Source: Zootoca vivipara (Eukaryota). From it: a DNA stretch of 64,000 nt. The stretch is from NCBI RefSeq assembly GCF_963506605.1, contig NC_083288.1, positions 41,478,001 through 41,542,000 on the forward strand. Reading direction: 5' to 3'. A program made the position numbers. Positions 12,001-21,000 of the stretch are shown here, in pieces (the stretch's first letter is position 1; every line of letters starts with the position of its first letter).

Positions 12001-15000
12001 TGTCAACCAGCCAATGGCCTGGTTTAAGAGGAACGCTATTGCCTGGATTCTAAGGCTGTATAATGAAGGCACTAGCTGAACCTCCCTGGGGAGAGCACTC
12101 CACAAATGGGGAGCCACTACAGAAAAGGCCCATTCCCATCTGCCACCCTCCAGACCATTCGTGGACATGTTGAGCTTTTTTTTAGGAGATGCAACAGAAT
12201 TGTTGAGCTTCAATTTGTTGGCTCTCATTTAGTTCATTACTTAGCAAAGGCAAGGCTCTGCACATCCAGTGCCTCACCTGCAGATATAGAACTGTGATGA
12301 TGATGATGATGCATTTTGCATCTTCTGTTGCTTGAACCTGGGAAGGGTCAGTTTAATTGGCTTAAATTGGTCATACAGTTAACCTTGTAGCCTTATCACA
12401 TCAGTCATTGCCACTACTGTATGTTGTTTTGGGGCTTCCAGGCAGCATCTTGCTGACCATTGTGGACACAACTATAAATTGACCTTTGGTCTAGAAGATC
12501 CAGCAGGGCTCACTTTATGTTAACACCCCCAAGGTCAAATTAACTGGTCTTTGAATGCATCAGAATGCTATATTTTAAAATGTGCACAAACAACAGAACT
12601 GGAACAACATTTTTGTCTTAGATACTAAAAACAAGAAAAGAAGCAACACAACATATAAGACTGACACATAGAACTCATGGTTTGTGTTAGTCCATGCCTA
12701 GGGCCTTGCTTCATAAGAAAACAATAACTAAATGAATTCATTTGAAACATTTATGATTAAGTCAATTTTCCAGAGCAGTATGGAGTTGCTGTAAGAACAA
12801 TACAAACATCTGGGGTATTGCTATTTAGATATTTGCCAACATGACTAATCTAATCTAATCTTGAGACATTATTGAATTGTGGGGTTTGAAAAGTTTCTAG
12901 ATGTGGCAACCGGTCCTTGAGTGCATCAGAATGCTATATTTTGAAATGTGCACAAACACCAGAACTAGAACAACTGTTTTGTCTTAGATCTCTGCCCCTT
13001 CTTTCCTTGTCCTATAAAAACCACCCCAACCCAGACTGAAACTCTGACTAAATTAATTTAAACTACCGTACTATCTAGCAGGCTCTTATATTATGATCTA
13101 TGCTGTGCTAAGCTGTTTAGAAGAAAGGCAGGGTGGAAATTTAACAATAAATGCCAATAAAACTGCTGTCTATCATGCATTAAGAATATAATGAAAATGC
13201 TGTTAAGATGATTATTTTTTGTCTTTCTGGGAAACTACCGCAGGCACTCACACAGCTATGATTGCAGCTGTGTACAAAAAAAGCAAATTCCAGCTACCAG
13301 TTTGACCCTTAGAGTGCTTATGGAAAGTAATCACTCTTTACAATCTGTATCCTTCTTCTTGGGTACGGTAGAATGGTGCAGCAAAGCCAAGGAAAGGCCT
13401 TATTAGCGCCACCTACTTGCAGCAGTAAGATCACGACTCGTTCACAGTCTTTCACTCAAATTGTATTCTTGCGTTGGTGTTACAAAAGCGCCTAGTCTCT
13501 CGAGAGGTGATTGGCTTCCCTTCTCAGCCAATACCAAGGCAGTCTGCAGTATTTCCTGGCCCGCCTACCTTCTTCCTCTGTCCTGCAGTTCCATGGCGCT
13601 GGGTAAGCATTTGTCGTTTCTGCTATCGAATCCATTCTTAATCTTAGGTTAGTTCTTGCCATCCGTTCTTGTTACGTCTTTGGAAAGAGTCACGGTACAG
13701 GTGGGGGTTGGGTTGCTAGATTTTTTGCTTTCAGATCGTTTGCATCCCACTCTAGCATTATTGCTCGTGAGTATGCTCTTCACTGCTTCCAAAGCAGCAT
13801 GGTACTGTCCGATTACTACGCCATTGAAAGCGTTTTCGGTGCCTAGTATTTCCCCGTGAAAAACATCCTAGTGGAAATCAAGGCTCGCTCTTCTGTCCCC
13901 TTCCCCAGAGACCACGTGTTCATTTTCTTAATTGCGTCGGTGTGATACGAAATGAAATGCGGGATACATGTTGAAGATGAAGCTTTCGGGTTTGGGGCGG
14001 GTGGAAACTGGGCACGCTCAGGCGAAAGGAGTTTTCTTCTGGCCCATTGAGTTGGGAATGAGAGAGAAAAAACTTCACCGTAGGTCTTTCCAGGGAGGCA
14101 AGAAATCTAGCAAAGTTTTCTACACTAGGAAACTTAATACTGCACCATGTGATGTTCCTGTTGATGGGTGGTGTAGAAATTCTTTTAGTGCAAAAATAGA
14201 ATAAAAGATTTAAGTGTGAGTTTGCTTAGGCCTGTTCTGCATTAAAAACAATTCCCAAGAAATAGCAAAAAGAAGCCCAAAGGTTCTTAAGGGCCTGGTA
14301 TGAGAGAATGCAATTAACACTCTGGCCTTAGAAGGCAATACTTTTTAAGCCTTTATGTATTCTCGTGTTCTTCCTCCACTTTACATTACTGACTTAATTG
14401 GAGCCAAACGTCTCTGAATGAGAGTTGAGGCTTGCTTGTGTGCTCCTTTAATGCTCTCCCTTTCTCTCTGCTTTCTGCAGTCTGCGGGAAAATGGACGGC
14501 TCCTACCTGAAGCATCTGCATCATCAAAGCAGTGCTTCTGGAATGCCCTCATCTGGAGTTAATCTTATGGTTTTCCATGCATTTGGGTAAGTCTTTTGTG
14601 AAGGGGAGTTCTTGTGCCTCTGATTTTGCACTGTGAAAGTATGTGTTTAATGCATTTAAATATCACTCCATTTTCCAAGGAGCTTAAGGTGACATATGCT
14701 GTTTCTCCCTGCCCCACTTTATCCTCACAGCAACCCTATGAGGTTAGGCTGAGGAGAGAGAGAGTGAGTGACCTTCATGGCAGAGTGGAGTTTTGAACCC
14801 TTGCAACTTCTTGGTTTGGTAGGACGTATGTAGTCCTAGGGATCTTTTATGCAAGTGTATTCTGTAAATATTATTTATTAAATTTGTATATTGCCCTTCA
14901 TTCGTAGATCTCTGGGCAGTTCACAACATAAAAATACAAGCTAAAAACACAAAACGCATACATAATAAGAACAAAGAAAAATCAGCAACTATCTTCAGAG

Positions 15001-18000: not shown

Positions 18001-21000
18001 ATAAAAAATTTGTCCTAATATTTAAGTTGTAGTTCATTATCGTCCACATTTACTAAGTGGAGTATATGTTGAATACCTTTTGAAATTGTGTACAATTCAT
18101 ATTAAGAAATAGTCAAGTTTCAGATGTTCACAAATTCGTTGCCAGAGTATAGTTACATCAATATGGTTATGGAAAACAAAGTGTCACATATCTGAAGATG
18201 GGTGAGCAAGTGTACATGGAAAATAGTTGCATCCAGCACATGTTGTATCTCTGGTCTCCTCCCTATCTGACTCTGAGAAAAAGCTGTTTTCCAAAACCAA
18301 CATTTGGAGGTAAAAGCTCCATCTTGATGCCATAAACCTGCTTTGTTCACCCTCACCCAAAATACATAGTTGTGAACAGGGTACTTTCTTTTTTACAAAT
18401 TCACAAGTCATTGCAACTTTGAAAACAAAGGATCTTCCAGTGTGTGTTGCATTTGGTCAGATCCATTGGAATTATTGGACCTTAATCAGATATGTCCCTT
18501 AATCTCAGTGGGTTTTCTCTTGAATATAACAATGTAGCCAATGACAAAGTTTTGCATTTAAATTGACATTTTAATTTTAAAGCCTTGTCAAAGCATATGA
18601 CATCTTGTACAGTTGTTACATCTTGGCAGTATTCATAGTAACAAAGTATATTAGAGATACAACATATCAAGTGGCTAGTTTAGATGCAAACCCTAAGACA
18701 AGGCCATGAGGAGACGACGCCTACACAGGTTTGTAGCAGGATAGGATCTGAATTGGTCTAAATGGAGACTGATTTGAATTTAAGTGTGCTGCTGGAATAA
18801 TGTTCCTGACAAAACCAAGGAAACACTTTGGAATTGCAACACACAGTACAATATTGGTTTATGTATATCTAGTGTTGGGTTGGTGAAAATGTAAACATGG
18901 CTTGTGCGCAGTGAGCTGTAATGGAGTGTTTTATTTGGATGGGAGCAGTGTCACCTGCATATCTAAAATAAGCCTTTATAAAATTGAAAGGGCTCATGAT
19001 TTGTCCAAAACTGCTGTGTCCTAAAATATTCCACTGTGAAGAGTTGTCACTAAGTTCAGCCATTTGGTAGCCTACTGCAATTATCTACCATGAGGCTTCA
19101 TGTAAACTGAGACAGACACAAGAATCCAGAGTCTTCTGAATATTACCAGCCTCTGGCTAAGCTATAGCAAAAGGGTGCATAGCTTTGCCTGGAATAAAAG
19201 GAGCATCAACATTGGGCTGTGTATATACATGATACCTTTACGGCCCATAACACTTTTTTTGTGACTTGCAAATGGTGGTTTTTAGTACAGTACTAGAGCT
19301 GGGAGGTGCAAAGAAATGTTATGAATACAGAGTTCACTTTGAACAAGGCTGATGGGACAGGAAACTTGAAACTTACTCGTTGGCTGTGGCTTCTAGAGTT
19401 ACATTTAAAAAAAAATACTAGGCTCGGGAACAATTCTGATGGACCTTGAAAACTTGCACTGGTGATTGGATTTTGTCTGACTAATAAAGTTCCTTTTACT
19501 GCCATTCCATACAATAGTTTTGGCACTTGAAGTTGCCTTAAATGGATTACGTACTGCATGGGGGCGAGAGAGGCAGTGCCTTAAAACGCTTTTCCTTTTC
19601 ACTGCCCAGCTATTCTTTAGTACTGTATATAAAACAAATGGAGCAACCACACCAAGCTGGGATTCGTAGGGCTGGGGAGGTGCATGAGTGCTTTCTCTCT
19701 GTGTGTTTGTCTTTGTGTGCGCAAACCAACCATTTTTTGGTTGTCGGCAGAACTCCGGCTTGCAACTTTTATAATTCCCTGGATGGCACGTGAGGGGCAA
19801 AGCAACGCATTTTAATTTTTGTGACGAGGACGTGGAGAGGTACAGCTTCAAAAACAGTAACAAACACAACAGTTCCGTGCTTGACCAGCGATATGCCCCT
19901 AGCGCTTCGCATTCCTATCCACTTTTCCCCCTCTCCCGCCCCTCGCCTTCTTTAGCGTCTCAGGGGAAACGTTGGCGAAAAGAGCGGGTATTAAAAGTAG
20001 GTTTGAAGAGCGGCGCGAGCTCCGGCCGTTGGAGACGCGGGGGCGGGAGCTGAACAGTTGGCAGGGCGGGGAACCAATCAAGTGAGGCGGCGCGTGAGCA
20101 ACTTCCCTTTTCCCCCCACCTAGGCGTTCTACAAATTTCCCGCCTTTTCTTCGATGTCTATCTCCACCCCCCCCAATCGCCCATCTTTCTAACTCCCATT
20201 TGTAAATGACTGCCTCACAAGCCTACGTACTCATGTCAGTAAAATACCTCGTTCGAAAGTGCTCGAAGTATTACGTCACAAAAGCATCAACTTCCTGGCT
20301 TATTTTCTTTTAAAACAGCAGGGTTTTGTTTGTTTTTGCCCCACACACCCCATAGCTACTCGCTGAACTTTTATTGTTTACTCAAGACTGCCACTTTTTG
20401 TTCACTCCGTGACAGCTGTGGGGCAGGCTGAAATACATCAGGTTAATCTTATCTAGTCGATGGATGTTATTAGGGCTTTCCAAAGGCATTTTCTGGCCGG
20501 CTGCTGTGAGAAAAAGGATGCTGGACTAGACTAGACGGGGCTGCTTGGTCTGATCCAGCAGGATTTTATGTTCCTTGAAGGGAAATTCAAACTCTGTTAA
20601 ATTTCTGGGACTTGCCTCCCACTATAAGAAAAATGAACAATGGGTAGTGTTTTAGTATTGAACTGATGTGTTGCGAATAAAAAGTAGGCTTAATGTGTTT
20701 TTTTTAAAAAAACTTTATAAATATTGTTAAAGCCCTAAAAAATTCCTCTGTGGATGGGCATAGGGCGTGGAGGGTGAAGAGCATTCTTTCCTTCAAAGAA
20801 TTCTGGGCACTGTTATTTGTTAGAAAGTGCAACTGTAGGGAAAAGCACAGTGCCTAGAATTCTTCAAGGGGGAGAACAATAGAATTGCAGAGTTGGAAGA
20901 GACAATGTGTTTCAAATATGCTTTAAAAGGTGAACTGACTGATTGGTCTCTTGGCTGTTTTGCACTCCTTGGGCTGTATCTACTCAGAGTAGGCCCACTG

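What the first reader, a model, noticed from the sequence alone, without database searches (positions are those of the whole stretch)
13490..20450. snoRNA host and meiotic CCNB1IP1 appear separable: TOP-type host with its own polyA signal, then a second promoter
Established: in human, SNORD126 and SNORA79B sit in 5' non-coding introns of CCNB1IP1. Seen: a TOP/TCT-like start at ~13572, a chain of short non-coding exons with one snoRNA per intron, a last exon from 17847 with AATAAA at 18000, then a distinct CpG promoter-like cluster at 19.8-20.3 kb, 2 kb before the first coding exon. Inference: a housekeeping SNHG-like lncRNA and a separately driven crossover gene in tandem. The human arrangement could then be a read-through fusion, and polyA choice could decide whether HEI10 is made in soma.
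Basis: partly seen in the sequence, partly recalled or inferred. Interest (0 to 1): 0.68.

Follow-up and report, generated by a model that had tools for sequence, protein, structure and literature searches.

The report
Lizard snoRNA host upstream of HEI10
In a lizard, the crossover gene HEI10 lies behind non-coding exons whose introns make three small nucleolar RNAs, with a second promoter-like CpG island in between, but sequence alone cannot show that the two parts are transcribed separately.

Summary
The window is from a lacertid lizard: coding exon 1 is 100% identical to Podarcis lilfordi CCNB1IP1. All 3 Rfam gathering-level hits in the 64 kb lie in the finding: SNORD126 twice and SNORA79 once, each in its own predicted intron.

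The chain starts in a CpG patch, at a 12-nt pyrimidine run just before a good donor. Its exons hold 16-19 ATGs, and two of them have stops in all three frames.

A second, denser CpG island lies at 19.7-20.3 kb: 38 CpG in 600 bp against 7.3 per kb in between. It is 2 kb before the acceptor at 22178 that opens the first HEI10 coding exon. It carries GC boxes, CCAAT, an E2F-like site, an ATG-free stretch and a good donor at 20082.

The "own polyA signal" is weak evidence, because AATAAA occurs about once per kb on this strand.

The most likely reading is one locus with two promoters feeding a shared acceptor. Strict separation into two genes is possible but not shown. No vertebrate DNA or transcript collection was available.

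The closest precedent is U17HG/SNHG3 upstream of RCC1, so this would be a new member of a known kind. Interest is modest.

The parts
13300..14050 (+). P1: the upstream CpG patch, the candidate host promoter
   Evidence: 31 CpG in 13301-14050. The 200-bp bins have CpG obs/exp 0.64-1.13. CCAAT at 13510(-) and 13528(+), CACGTG at 13913, GGGCGG at 13995.
13568..13602 (+). Candidate first exon: a TOP-like pyrimidine run (13568-13579) running up to the donor G at 13603
   Evidence: One ATG at 13593 (tccATGg) stays open to the exon end. The start site itself is not mapped.
14481..14586 (+). Non-coding exon 2
   Evidence: Acceptor score 10.7 (99.0th percentile) and donor at 14587 score 8.7 (99.0th percentile). 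4 ATGs.
15539..15687 (+). Non-coding exon 3, the exon of duplicated unit 1
   Evidence: Acceptor score 5.1 and donor at 15688 score 7.5. 4 ATGs and stops in all three frames.
15765..15841 (+). SNORD126 copy 1, in the 209-nt intron 15688-15896
   Evidence: Rfam RF01168, 72.7 bits. It starts 77 nt after the donor and ends 55 nt before the acceptor.
15897..16091 (+). Non-coding exon 4 (alternative acceptor at 15952/15954)
   Evidence: 4 ATGs and stops in all three frames.
16169..16246 (+). SNORD126 copy 2, in the 213-nt intron 16092-16304
   Evidence: Rfam RF01168, 69.6 bits. It starts 77 nt after the donor and ends 58 nt before the acceptor at 16305.
16305..16489 (+).
   Evidence: Acceptor score 7.8, 96.4th percentile. 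Donor at 16490 score 9.2, 99.3rd percentile. This is inferred from splice scores and from the spacing after the snoRNA.
17118..17183 (+). Non-coding exon before the SNORA79 intron
   Evidence: Acceptor score 9.6 and donor at 17184 score 7.3. 3 ATGs.
17560..17705 (+). SNORA79, in the 663-nt intron 17184-17846
   Evidence: Rfam RF00600, 118.9 bits, full-length match.
17847..18201 (+). Exon after SNORA79. It is either terminal (AATAAA at 18000) or internal (donors at 17870 or 18202), so it is a possible composite terminal exon.
   Evidence: Acceptor score 6.0 (93.1st percentile). Donors at 17870 (score 7.0) and 18202 (score 8.1). AATAAA at 18000 has T fraction 0.44 in the 36 nt downstream and one UGUA upstream.
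19700..20300 (.). P2: the second CpG island, a candidate internal promoter
   Evidence: 38 CpG per 600 bp. Three GGGCGG sites against 0.29 expected per 750 bp, CCAAT at 20074 and 20173, TTTSSCGC at 20136, CACGTG at 19787, TGACG at 19822(+) and 20274(-). No other copy in the window. No tRNA. No Rfam hit. No Pfam hit in its ORFs.
20015..20081 (+). Hypothetical first exon from P2: a G-rich, ATG-free stretch ending at the donor CAA|GTGAGG (G at 20082)
   Evidence: Donor score 8.6, 98.9th percentile. 0 ATGs. The ATG-free stretch is 19894-20153. Positive GC skew over 19960-20100. The 5' end is my guess.
22178..22548 (+). First HEI10/CCNB1IP1 coding exon. It opens with an acceptor and has its ATG at 22252.
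   Evidence: Pfam zf-RING_5, E 1.1e-7. 100% identity over 99 aa to Podarcis lilfordi CCNB1IP1. The donor G is base 298 from the ATG, the same position as the mouse mei4 mutation (passages of PMC1959360).
23292..23625 (+). HEI10 coding exon 2 (coiled coil)
   Evidence: The exon boundaries fit protein P0001.
25484..25680 (+). HEI10 coding exon 3, up to the stop codon
   Evidence: Acceptor candidate at 25484. The translation fits the C-terminus of P0001 with 3 differences.

Best explanation
This is the lacertid-lizard CCNB1IP1 (HEI10) locus, and it keeps the vertebrate snoRNA-host arrangement. A TOP-like CpG promoter (P1, about 13.57 kb) drives a chain of short non-coding exons. Their introns release two SNORD126 copies and one SNORA79.

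A second, denser CpG island (P2, 19.7-20.3 kb) most likely acts as an internal alternative promoter. Its transcript would carry a short, ATG-free first exon, ending at the donor at 20082, that splices to the acceptor at 22178. That would give a translatable HEI10 mRNA.

P1 transcripts serve mainly to make snoRNAs. They end in one of two ways. They may be polyadenylated in the exon that starts at 17847. Or they may splice on to 22178, which gives RNAs with a leader of 625 nt or more holding at least 17 upstream ATGs. Such RNAs should translate HEI10 poorly and be open to nonsense-mediated decay.

Shown here: the snoRNAs, the splice-site chain, the non-coding nature of the exons, the two CpG clusters and the HEI10 coding exons. 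Inferred: both start sites, the use of P2 for HEI10, the 3' end near 18.02 kb, and the fate of P1 read-through RNAs.
For: - snoRNAs and one-per-intron layout.
- Non-coding host exons. There are 16 ATGs in E1-E4 plus E6, and 19 with the optional exon at 16305. Stops occur in all three frames in E3 and E4. By frame arithmetic, the ORF from the first ATG (13593) closes at a TGA at about 15549 in E3, upstream of several exon junctions.
- Host-gene signature in the internal duplication: exon 60.8% identical, against 90.9% for the 5' intron flank, 96.2% for the snoRNA and 80.0% for the 3' flank.
- P2 is a real CpG island. It has 38 CpG per 600 bp against 7.3 per kb in between. It is denser than P1, and denser than the patch around TTC5 coding exon 1, which has 21 per 600 bp and is the one promoter in the window that a coding first exon anchors.
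- Promoter motifs in P2.
- The best donor in P2 (20082, score 8.6) sits at the end of a G-rich, ATG-free block.
- The first coding exon opens with an acceptor, so an upstream exon is required.
- Human precedent that host RNA and protein output are uncoupled. Spliced CCNB1IP1 RNA rises on SMG6 or UPF1 depletion and on cycloheximide, while the hosted snoRNAs stay essentially unchanged; SNORD126 was the one probed for CCNB1IP1 (PMC4233243, section 9 read).
- Mouse Hei10 is prominent in testis and 17-day embryo and much lower elsewhere (PMC1959360, passages).
Against: - No transcript, CAGE or 3'-end data of any kind, and no second vertebrate genome could be compared.
- P2 also holds the best-scoring acceptor of the window (20124, score 16.5) and minus-strand donors (20119 at 8.2, 19376 at 7.1).
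- GC skew flips twice across P2, so it does not fix a direction.
- AATAAA is not depleted downstream of P2 on the + strand: there are 4 in 20083-22177.
- CpG-rich patches in this window are not all promoters. Examples are the inverted element pair at 24.5-25.5 kb and two olfactory-receptor coding exons with obs/exp 0.56-0.68.
- The AATAAA at 18000 is at chance frequency.
- My splice scores come from a matrix with recalled, approximate frequencies.
Confidence: 0.45

Rival explanations
1. There is a single transcription unit, as the gene is described for human. All HEI10 mRNAs start at P1 and carry the host exons as 5' UTR. P2 is an orphan CpG island or enhancer with no role as the HEI10 start site, or it is an internal UTR exon that uses the acceptor at 20124.
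For: - The order of elements matches the human description of SNORD126 lying in a CCNB1IP1 intron (passages of PMC8148486, PMC5838311 and PMC3025573).
- The first coding exon needs an upstream donor, and the host chain offers several.
- The acceptor at 20124 scores highest of 4509 AG sites.
- Human CCNB1IP1 is treated as one protein-coding host gene whose spliced RNA is NMD-sensitive.
Against: - A leader of 625 nt or more with at least 17 upstream ATGs, several in a strong context, would be a poor template for HEI10.
- P2 is the densest unique CpG cluster near the gene and has a promoter-like motif set.
- The only donors after 20124 are weak: 20235 scores 5.2 and 20442 scores 3.8.
Confidence: 0.3
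2. One reading: two separate genes. The host lncRNA always ends near 18.02 kb, and HEI10 is made only from P2. Mammals would later have fused the two by read-through.
For: - The acceptor at 17847 is followed by AATAAA at 18000, with a T-rich downstream stretch (0.44) and one upstream UGUA.
- P2's features are as listed above.
Against: - The hexamer is at chance frequency: 10 copies in 8.7 kb.
- Donors at 17870 and 18202 flank it, and bound U1 could suppress it (the suppression is recalled knowledge).
- The acceptors at 17847 and 22178 score the same, 6.0 and 6.1.
- The direction of evolution cannot be judged from one genome.
Confidence: 0.15
3. P2 mainly drives a minus-strand (antisense or divergent) non-coding transcript that runs back over the host's 3' region.
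For: - Minus-strand donors at 20119 (score 8.2) and 19376 (score 7.1).
- The + strand is C-rich at 19840-19980 and 20100-20260, so the minus strand is G-rich there.
- There is only 1 minus-strand AATAAA in 18000-19950.
Against: - No coding or Rfam feature on the minus strand there. The 169-codon open frame at 19405-19914(-) has no Met and no Pfam match.
- Divergent transcription would not exclude sense use of P2.
Confidence: 0.1

Closest known systems
U17HG (SNHG3) upstream of RCC1 in human and mouse
   Same: A 5'-TOP, non-protein-coding host with H/ACA snoRNAs in its introns lies a few kb upstream of a cell-cycle gene, in the same orientation. Transcripts that join host exons to the downstream gene are annotated as SNHG3-RCC1 read-through (passages of PMC7601244, PMC12886423 and PMC2784330).
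   Different: The snoRNAs differ (SNORA73 family there; SNORD126 and SNORA79 here) and so does the downstream gene. In that case the start site, the poly(A) end and the read-through were shown by experiment; here none is. The primary papers (Pelczar & Filipowicz 1998; Kiss & Filipowicz 1993) are not held. Details beyond the review passages are recalled.
Human CCNB1IP1 as a protein-coding snoRNA host with NMD-sensitive spliced RNA
   Same: It is the orthologous gene and hosts SNORD126 in an intron. Host RNA and snoRNA levels are uncoupled (PMC4233243, section 9; PMC8148486).
   Different: The uncoupling shown in human works through NMD of spliced isoforms, not through a separate promoter or poly(A) site. 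The lizard has two SNORD126 copies. I could not compare promoters, because no human sequence was used.
Dual-initiation (YR plus YC/TOP) promoters of snoRNA host genes
   Same: This is a known way for one locus to give snoRNA-precursor transcripts and mRNA with different fates (PMC6954239 passages; PMC8176728 passages).
   Different: There the two start types are intertwined within one core promoter, a few nucleotides apart. Here the two candidate promoters lie 6.5 kb apart, with the snoRNAs between them.
Classical non-coding TOP hosts (UHG/SNHG1, GAS5)
   Same: They have short, poorly conserved exons, one snoRNA per intron, a TOP start, and short ORFs that make the RNA NMD-prone. This is as summarised in the passages of PMC6954239; the rest is recalled.
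   Different: Those are free-standing genes, with no coding gene sharing their strand immediately downstream.

Membership tests
SNORD126 (Rfam RF01168) | Covariance-model score at or above the curated gathering score, with C, D' and D boxes in place | tested here: met
   72.7 and 69.6 bits against a cut-off of 55. Both are full-length matches (1-77 of 77), and the ATGATGA and CTGA boxes are visible in the alignment.
SNORA79 (Rfam RF00600) | Covariance-model score at or above the gathering score, with two hairpins and an ACA box 3 nt from the end | tested here: met
   118.9 bits against a cut-off of 55, matching positions 1-143 of 143.
CCNB1IP1 / HEI10 | N-terminal RING, then a coiled coil, then a conserved C-terminal tail, encoded in three coding exons | tested here: met
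   Exons were searched one by one. Exon 1 matches zf-RING_5 at E 1.1e-7 and is 100% identical to Podarcis lilfordi CCNB1IP1; 254 of 343 candidates score E<=1e-10, and most of the 120 listed are named CCNB1IP1. Exons 2 and 3 match P0001 by eye with a few differences. The three-coding-exon layout matches mouse.
5'-TOP non-coding snoRNA host gene (SNHG class) | snoRNAs lie in introns, one per intron | tested here: met
   The introns are 209, 213 and 663 nt long, and each holds one snoRNA.
5'-TOP non-coding snoRNA host gene (SNHG class) | Transcription starts at a C followed by an oligopyrimidine tract | tested here: inconclusive
   A fitting tract exists at 13568-13579. Such runs occur about once per kb, and the same tract also scores as an acceptor (13589, score 10.9). 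The start site is not mapped.
5'-TOP non-coding snoRNA host gene (SNHG class) | The exons have no long or conserved ORF | tested here: met
   E3 and E4 have stops in all three frames, and there are 16-19 ATGs with short ORFs. The duplicated exon is 60.8% identical against 96.2% for the snoRNA. Cross-species conservation is not testable here.
5'-TOP non-coding snoRNA host gene (SNHG class) | The spliced RNA has its own poly(A) end, independent of the next gene | not testable with these tools
   Only a hexamer at 18000 can be shown, and it is at chance frequency.
CpG-island promoter (P2) | At least 200 bp with GC >= 0.5 and CpG obs/exp >= 0.6 (criteria recalled) | tested here: met
   Bins 19901-20100 and 20001-20200 have GC 0.61 and 0.59 and obs/exp 1.09 and 0.91.
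CpG-island promoter (P2) | Transcription initiates there, on the + strand, and joins the HEI10 exons | not testable with these tools
   No CAGE, cDNA or RNA-seq was available. The motifs and the donor at 20082 are only consistent with it.
Host / downstream-gene read-through pair (SNHG3-RCC1 type) | Both separate and joined transcripts are observed | not testable with these tools
   No transcript data.

The most novel reading that the evidence does not exclude
In lacertid lizards, and perhaps ancestrally in amniotes, the SNORD126/SNORA79 host is a free-standing TOP lncRNA gene that ends near 18.02 kb. HEI10, a dosage-sensitive crossover factor, has its own germline-type CpG promoter 2 kb upstream of its first coding exon. 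The mammalian CCNB1IP1 5' UTR would then be a secondary fusion of the two units. In the lizard, the choice between polyadenylation in the composite exon 17847-18201 and splicing on to 22178 would set how much uORF-laden HEI10 RNA somatic cells make.
Probability: 0.12. Interest if true: 0.55.

Novelty: new member of a known kind. Interest (0 to 1): 0.3.

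Why it matters
I recall from plant and mouse work, not checked here, that HEI10 dosage helps set crossover number. How its expression is kept germline-biased therefore matters. In mammals the gene is also a housekeeping snoRNA host, which seems at odds with a meiotic role.

A lizard locus where the host part and the coding part each have a CpG promoter would give a simple explanation. One promoter would serve ribosome-related snoRNAs and the other the meiotic protein, and it would be a second natural example of the SNHG3-RCC1 layout.

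The idea is cheap to test with public squamate RNA-seq. As it stands it is a reasonable annotation hypothesis, not a discovery.

Tried and rejected
- RNase P RNA or any other known RNA in or near P2: the Rfam E-value scan of 1-30000 found nothing credible beyond the three snoRNAs. The other 6 of its 9 rows are far below their gathering scores.
- P2 as a repeat or SINE: self-BLAST of 13401-22200 against the window found only the SNORD126 unit duplication and a short repeat at 14853-14933, and nothing for 19.4-20.5 kb. ARAGORN found 0 tRNAs in the window.
- A coding exon in 17.8-20.45 kb: 28 open frames of 50 aa or more were listed. I gave 4 of the 28 to Pfam, and 0 of the 4 matched at E<=1.
- A hidden H/ACA snoRNA in the snoRNA-less intron 16490-17117: folding 16690-16880 gave z = -1.0, and 29 of 200 shuffles folded at least as well. 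Dropped.
- GC skew as a direction marker for P2: ambiguous.
- Poly(A)-site quality as a discriminator: by eye, the downstream stretches printed for 14200 and 20676 look as T/GT-rich as that of 18000.
- Literature:
  - 0 papers hold ccnb1ip1 + 'alternative promoter' + testis.
  - Of the 12 listed papers (out of 72) for ccnb1ip1/E2F6/'germline genes', none contains ccnb1ip1.
  - None of the 10 listed (out of 335) for ccnb1ip1/'TOP mRNAs'/'snoRNA host'/LARP1 contains ccnb1ip1.
  - PMC13736004, PMC8176728 and PMC6954239 do not mention CCNB1IP1 in their main text, and the first two do not mention SNORD126 or SNORA79 either.
  - One search was badly framed and gave nothing useful.
Conservation of P1, P2 and the 18.0 kb site therefore stayed unchecked.

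Full report
WHAT THE WINDOW IS

The first HEI10 coding exon (22252-22548, 99 codons) was searched on its own. It is 100% identical to CCNB1IP1 of Podarcis lilfordi and 97-99% identical to other squamates; 254 of 343 candidates score E<=1e-10. Pfam finds zf-RING_5 in it at E 1.1e-7. Exons 2 (23292-23625) and 3 (25484-25680) fit the same protein with a few substitutions. The source is therefore a lacertid lizard close to that species but not identical to it. It is not human.

The donor G at 22549 is base 298 from the ATG. That is the position of the mouse mei4 splice mutation, and mouse also has three coding exons (PMC1959360, passages).

Downstream on the same strand is a TPR gene. I read it as TTC5 from recalled sequence, and Pfam shows TPR repeats in one of its exons. 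Its first coding exon has its ATG at about 27670. After it come olfactory-receptor genes on the minus strand.

Exons were searched one by one.

THE OBSERVATION

All parts of the observation are real.

Rfam gives exactly three gathering-level hits in the 64 kb: two SNORD126 and one SNORA79. Each sits alone in an intron bounded by good splice sites.

The two SNORD126 introns are 209 and 213 nt long. In each, the snoRNA starts 77 nt after the donor and ends 55 or 58 nt before the acceptor. That is close to the spacing I recall for intronic C/D snoRNAs (Hirose and Steitz 2001, recalled, not seen). This spacing suggests an extra exon that starts at 16305.

The two SNORD126 units are a tandem duplication: 15520-15894 against 15935-16299, 79% identical. 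Within it the exon is 60.8% identical, the 5' intron flank 90.9%, the snoRNA 96.2% and the 3' flank 80.0%. Introns kept better than exons are the classical signature of a host gene whose product is the intron.

The host exons hold 16 ATGs, or 19 with the optional exon. Stops occur in all three frames in E3 and E4. By frame arithmetic, the first ATG (13593) opens a short ORF that closes at about 15549 in E3. 'Non-coding' is therefore justified.

THE 5' END

A CpG patch at 13.3-14.05 kb contains two CCAAT boxes, a 12-nt pyrimidine run beginning with C at 13568, and a donor at 13603. This fits a TOP start.

Two cautions apply. Such runs occur 67 times on this strand of the window. The same tract also scores as a 3' splice site. 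The start site is a good candidate and not a fact.

Upstream of it, 1-13 kb is repeat-rich. By eye, large mirrored segments flank a GC-rich tandem array at 5349-6164. No gene is evident there.

THE 'OWN POLYA SIGNAL'

The acceptor at 17847 and the AATAAA at 18000 exist. The hexamer has a T-rich downstream stretch and one upstream UGUA.

However, AATAAA occurs once per 1032 nt on this strand and 10 times between 13.5 and 22.2 kb. Its presence within 155 nt of an acceptor is roughly a 1-in-7 event. By eye, two other copies (14200 and 20676) have equally good downstream stretches.

The exon also carries donors at 17870 and 18202. The acceptors at 17847 and 22178 score the same, 6.0 and 6.1. The exon could therefore be terminal, internal, or a composite terminal exon. 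The sequence does not decide between these.

THE SECOND CpG CLUSTER

This is the strongest part of the finding.

- 19701-20300 holds 38 CpG, against 7.3 per kb in the 5.65 kb before it.
- CpG obs/exp is 0.91-1.09 in the 200-bp bins from 19801 to 20300, and GC is 0.59-0.61 in the central two.
- It is denser than P1, and denser than the CpG patch around TTC5 coding exon 1, which has 21 per 600 bp.
- It is unique in the window.
- It holds no tRNA, no Rfam family and no Pfam-matching frame.
- Its motifs are three GGGCGG (0.29 expected per 750 bp), CCAAT at 20074 and 20173, TTTSSCGC at 20136 (0.05 expected), CACGTG at 19787 and two TGACG half-sites. CpG-containing motifs are expected in any CpG-rich patch, so these are consistent with a promoter but are not proof.
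- A G-rich, ATG-free block (19894-20153 has no ATG) ends at the best local donor, 20082 at score 8.6. That would give a short, clean leader joined to 22178.

Against a simple reading:
- The island contains the top-scoring acceptor of the window, at 20124.
- It contains minus-strand donors at 20119 and 19376.
- GC skew flips twice across it.
- AATAAA is not depleted downstream of it.
- Some CpG-rich patches in this window are not promoters.

MECHANISM I THINK MOST LIKELY

The first coding exon needs an upstream exon. If that exon came from P1, the leader would be 625 nt or more with at least 17 upstream ATGs. Several of these are in strong context, and their stops lie well upstream of later exon junctions. 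That is a poor template for HEI10 and a likely target of nonsense-mediated decay.

This matches the human data. Spliced CCNB1IP1 RNA rises on SMG6 or UPF1 depletion and on cycloheximide, while the hosted snoRNAs are essentially unaffected; SNORD126 was the one probed (PMC4233243, section 9 read). Mouse Hei10 RNA is prominent in testis and 17-day embryo and low elsewhere.

I therefore favour one locus with two promoters. P1 would serve snoRNA production, and P2 would give the translatable meiotic mRNA. P1 transcripts would either end near 18.02 kb or read through. I put this at 0.45. I put a single P1-driven unit at 0.30, strict separation at 0.15 and a mainly antisense P2 at 0.10.

COMPARISON WITH WHAT IS KNOWN

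The proposed layout is not new in kind.
- U17HG/SNHG3 is a 5'-TOP, non-coding host about 9 kb upstream of RCC1 (review passages), and an SNHG3-RCC1 read-through transcript is annotated.
- Uncoupling of host RNA from snoRNA by NMD is known.
- Uncoupling by dual-initiation promoters is known.

What would be new is the particular gene pair and the lineage, and possibly the evolutionary direction. None of this can be judged from one genome.

I found no paper on alternative promoters of CCNB1IP1. The search covers open-access text only, and supplements were closed.

VERDICT

This would be a new member of a known kind. Interest is 0.3.

Noticed in passing
window 15520-16299: The tandem duplication of the exon-plus-SNORD126-intron unit keeps the whole intron at 80-96% identity, but the exon at only 60.8%, with 19 gap columns. 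Either selection or gene conversion acts on the intron as a unit, flanks included.
   Followed up: yes
window 22192-22251: An ATG at 22192, directly after a stop codon, is in frame with the HEI10 start at 22252. It would add 20 residues. Its context is weak (tgaATGc). The Podarcis and Anolis reference proteins start at the downstream Met.
   Followed up: partly
window 1-10300: By eye, large mirrored segments flank a very GC-rich tandem array at 5349-6164: for example the frames at 95-655 against 8834-9400, and 1242-1457 against 7974-8189. The array has periods of 114-322 bp, 90-92% matches, and GC up to 0.73. No gene is evident. It looks like a palindromic repeat structure or an assembly feature.
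   Followed up: partly
window 24700-25480: An inverted pair of a CpG-rich element lies in HEI10 intron 2: the mirrored frames 24699-24896(-) against 25247-25483(+), and 24797-25000(+) against 25143-25346(-). It ends within a few bases of the acceptor of coding exon 3 at 25484.
   Followed up: no
window 26538-26654 (-): A hairpin matches the MIR2863 model at 40.1 bits, far below its gathering score of 94. It lies between HEI10 and TTC5. It is probably a repeat-derived hairpin and not a real family member.
   Followed up: no
window 42370-61413 (-): An olfactory-receptor cluster. Three intact single-exon frames (42370-43386, 55753-56760, 60361-61413) match Pfam 7tm_4 at E 4e-42 to 2e-33. A fourth copy is split between two frames at 51293-52238, so it is probably a pseudogene.
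   Followed up: partly
window 45200-46000: A GC-rich patch (GC 0.69, CpG obs/exp 0.62, 41 CpG per 600 bp) with long open frames on both strands and no Pfam match for the one tested. Its nature is unknown.
   Followed up: no
window 23755-23822: A 30-nt tandem repeat, 2.3 copies, in HEI10 intron 2.
   Followed up: no
window 56962-57105: A run of 144 N just beyond the 5' end of the minus-strand olfactory-receptor frame at 55753-56760. It was left as it is.
   Followed up: no
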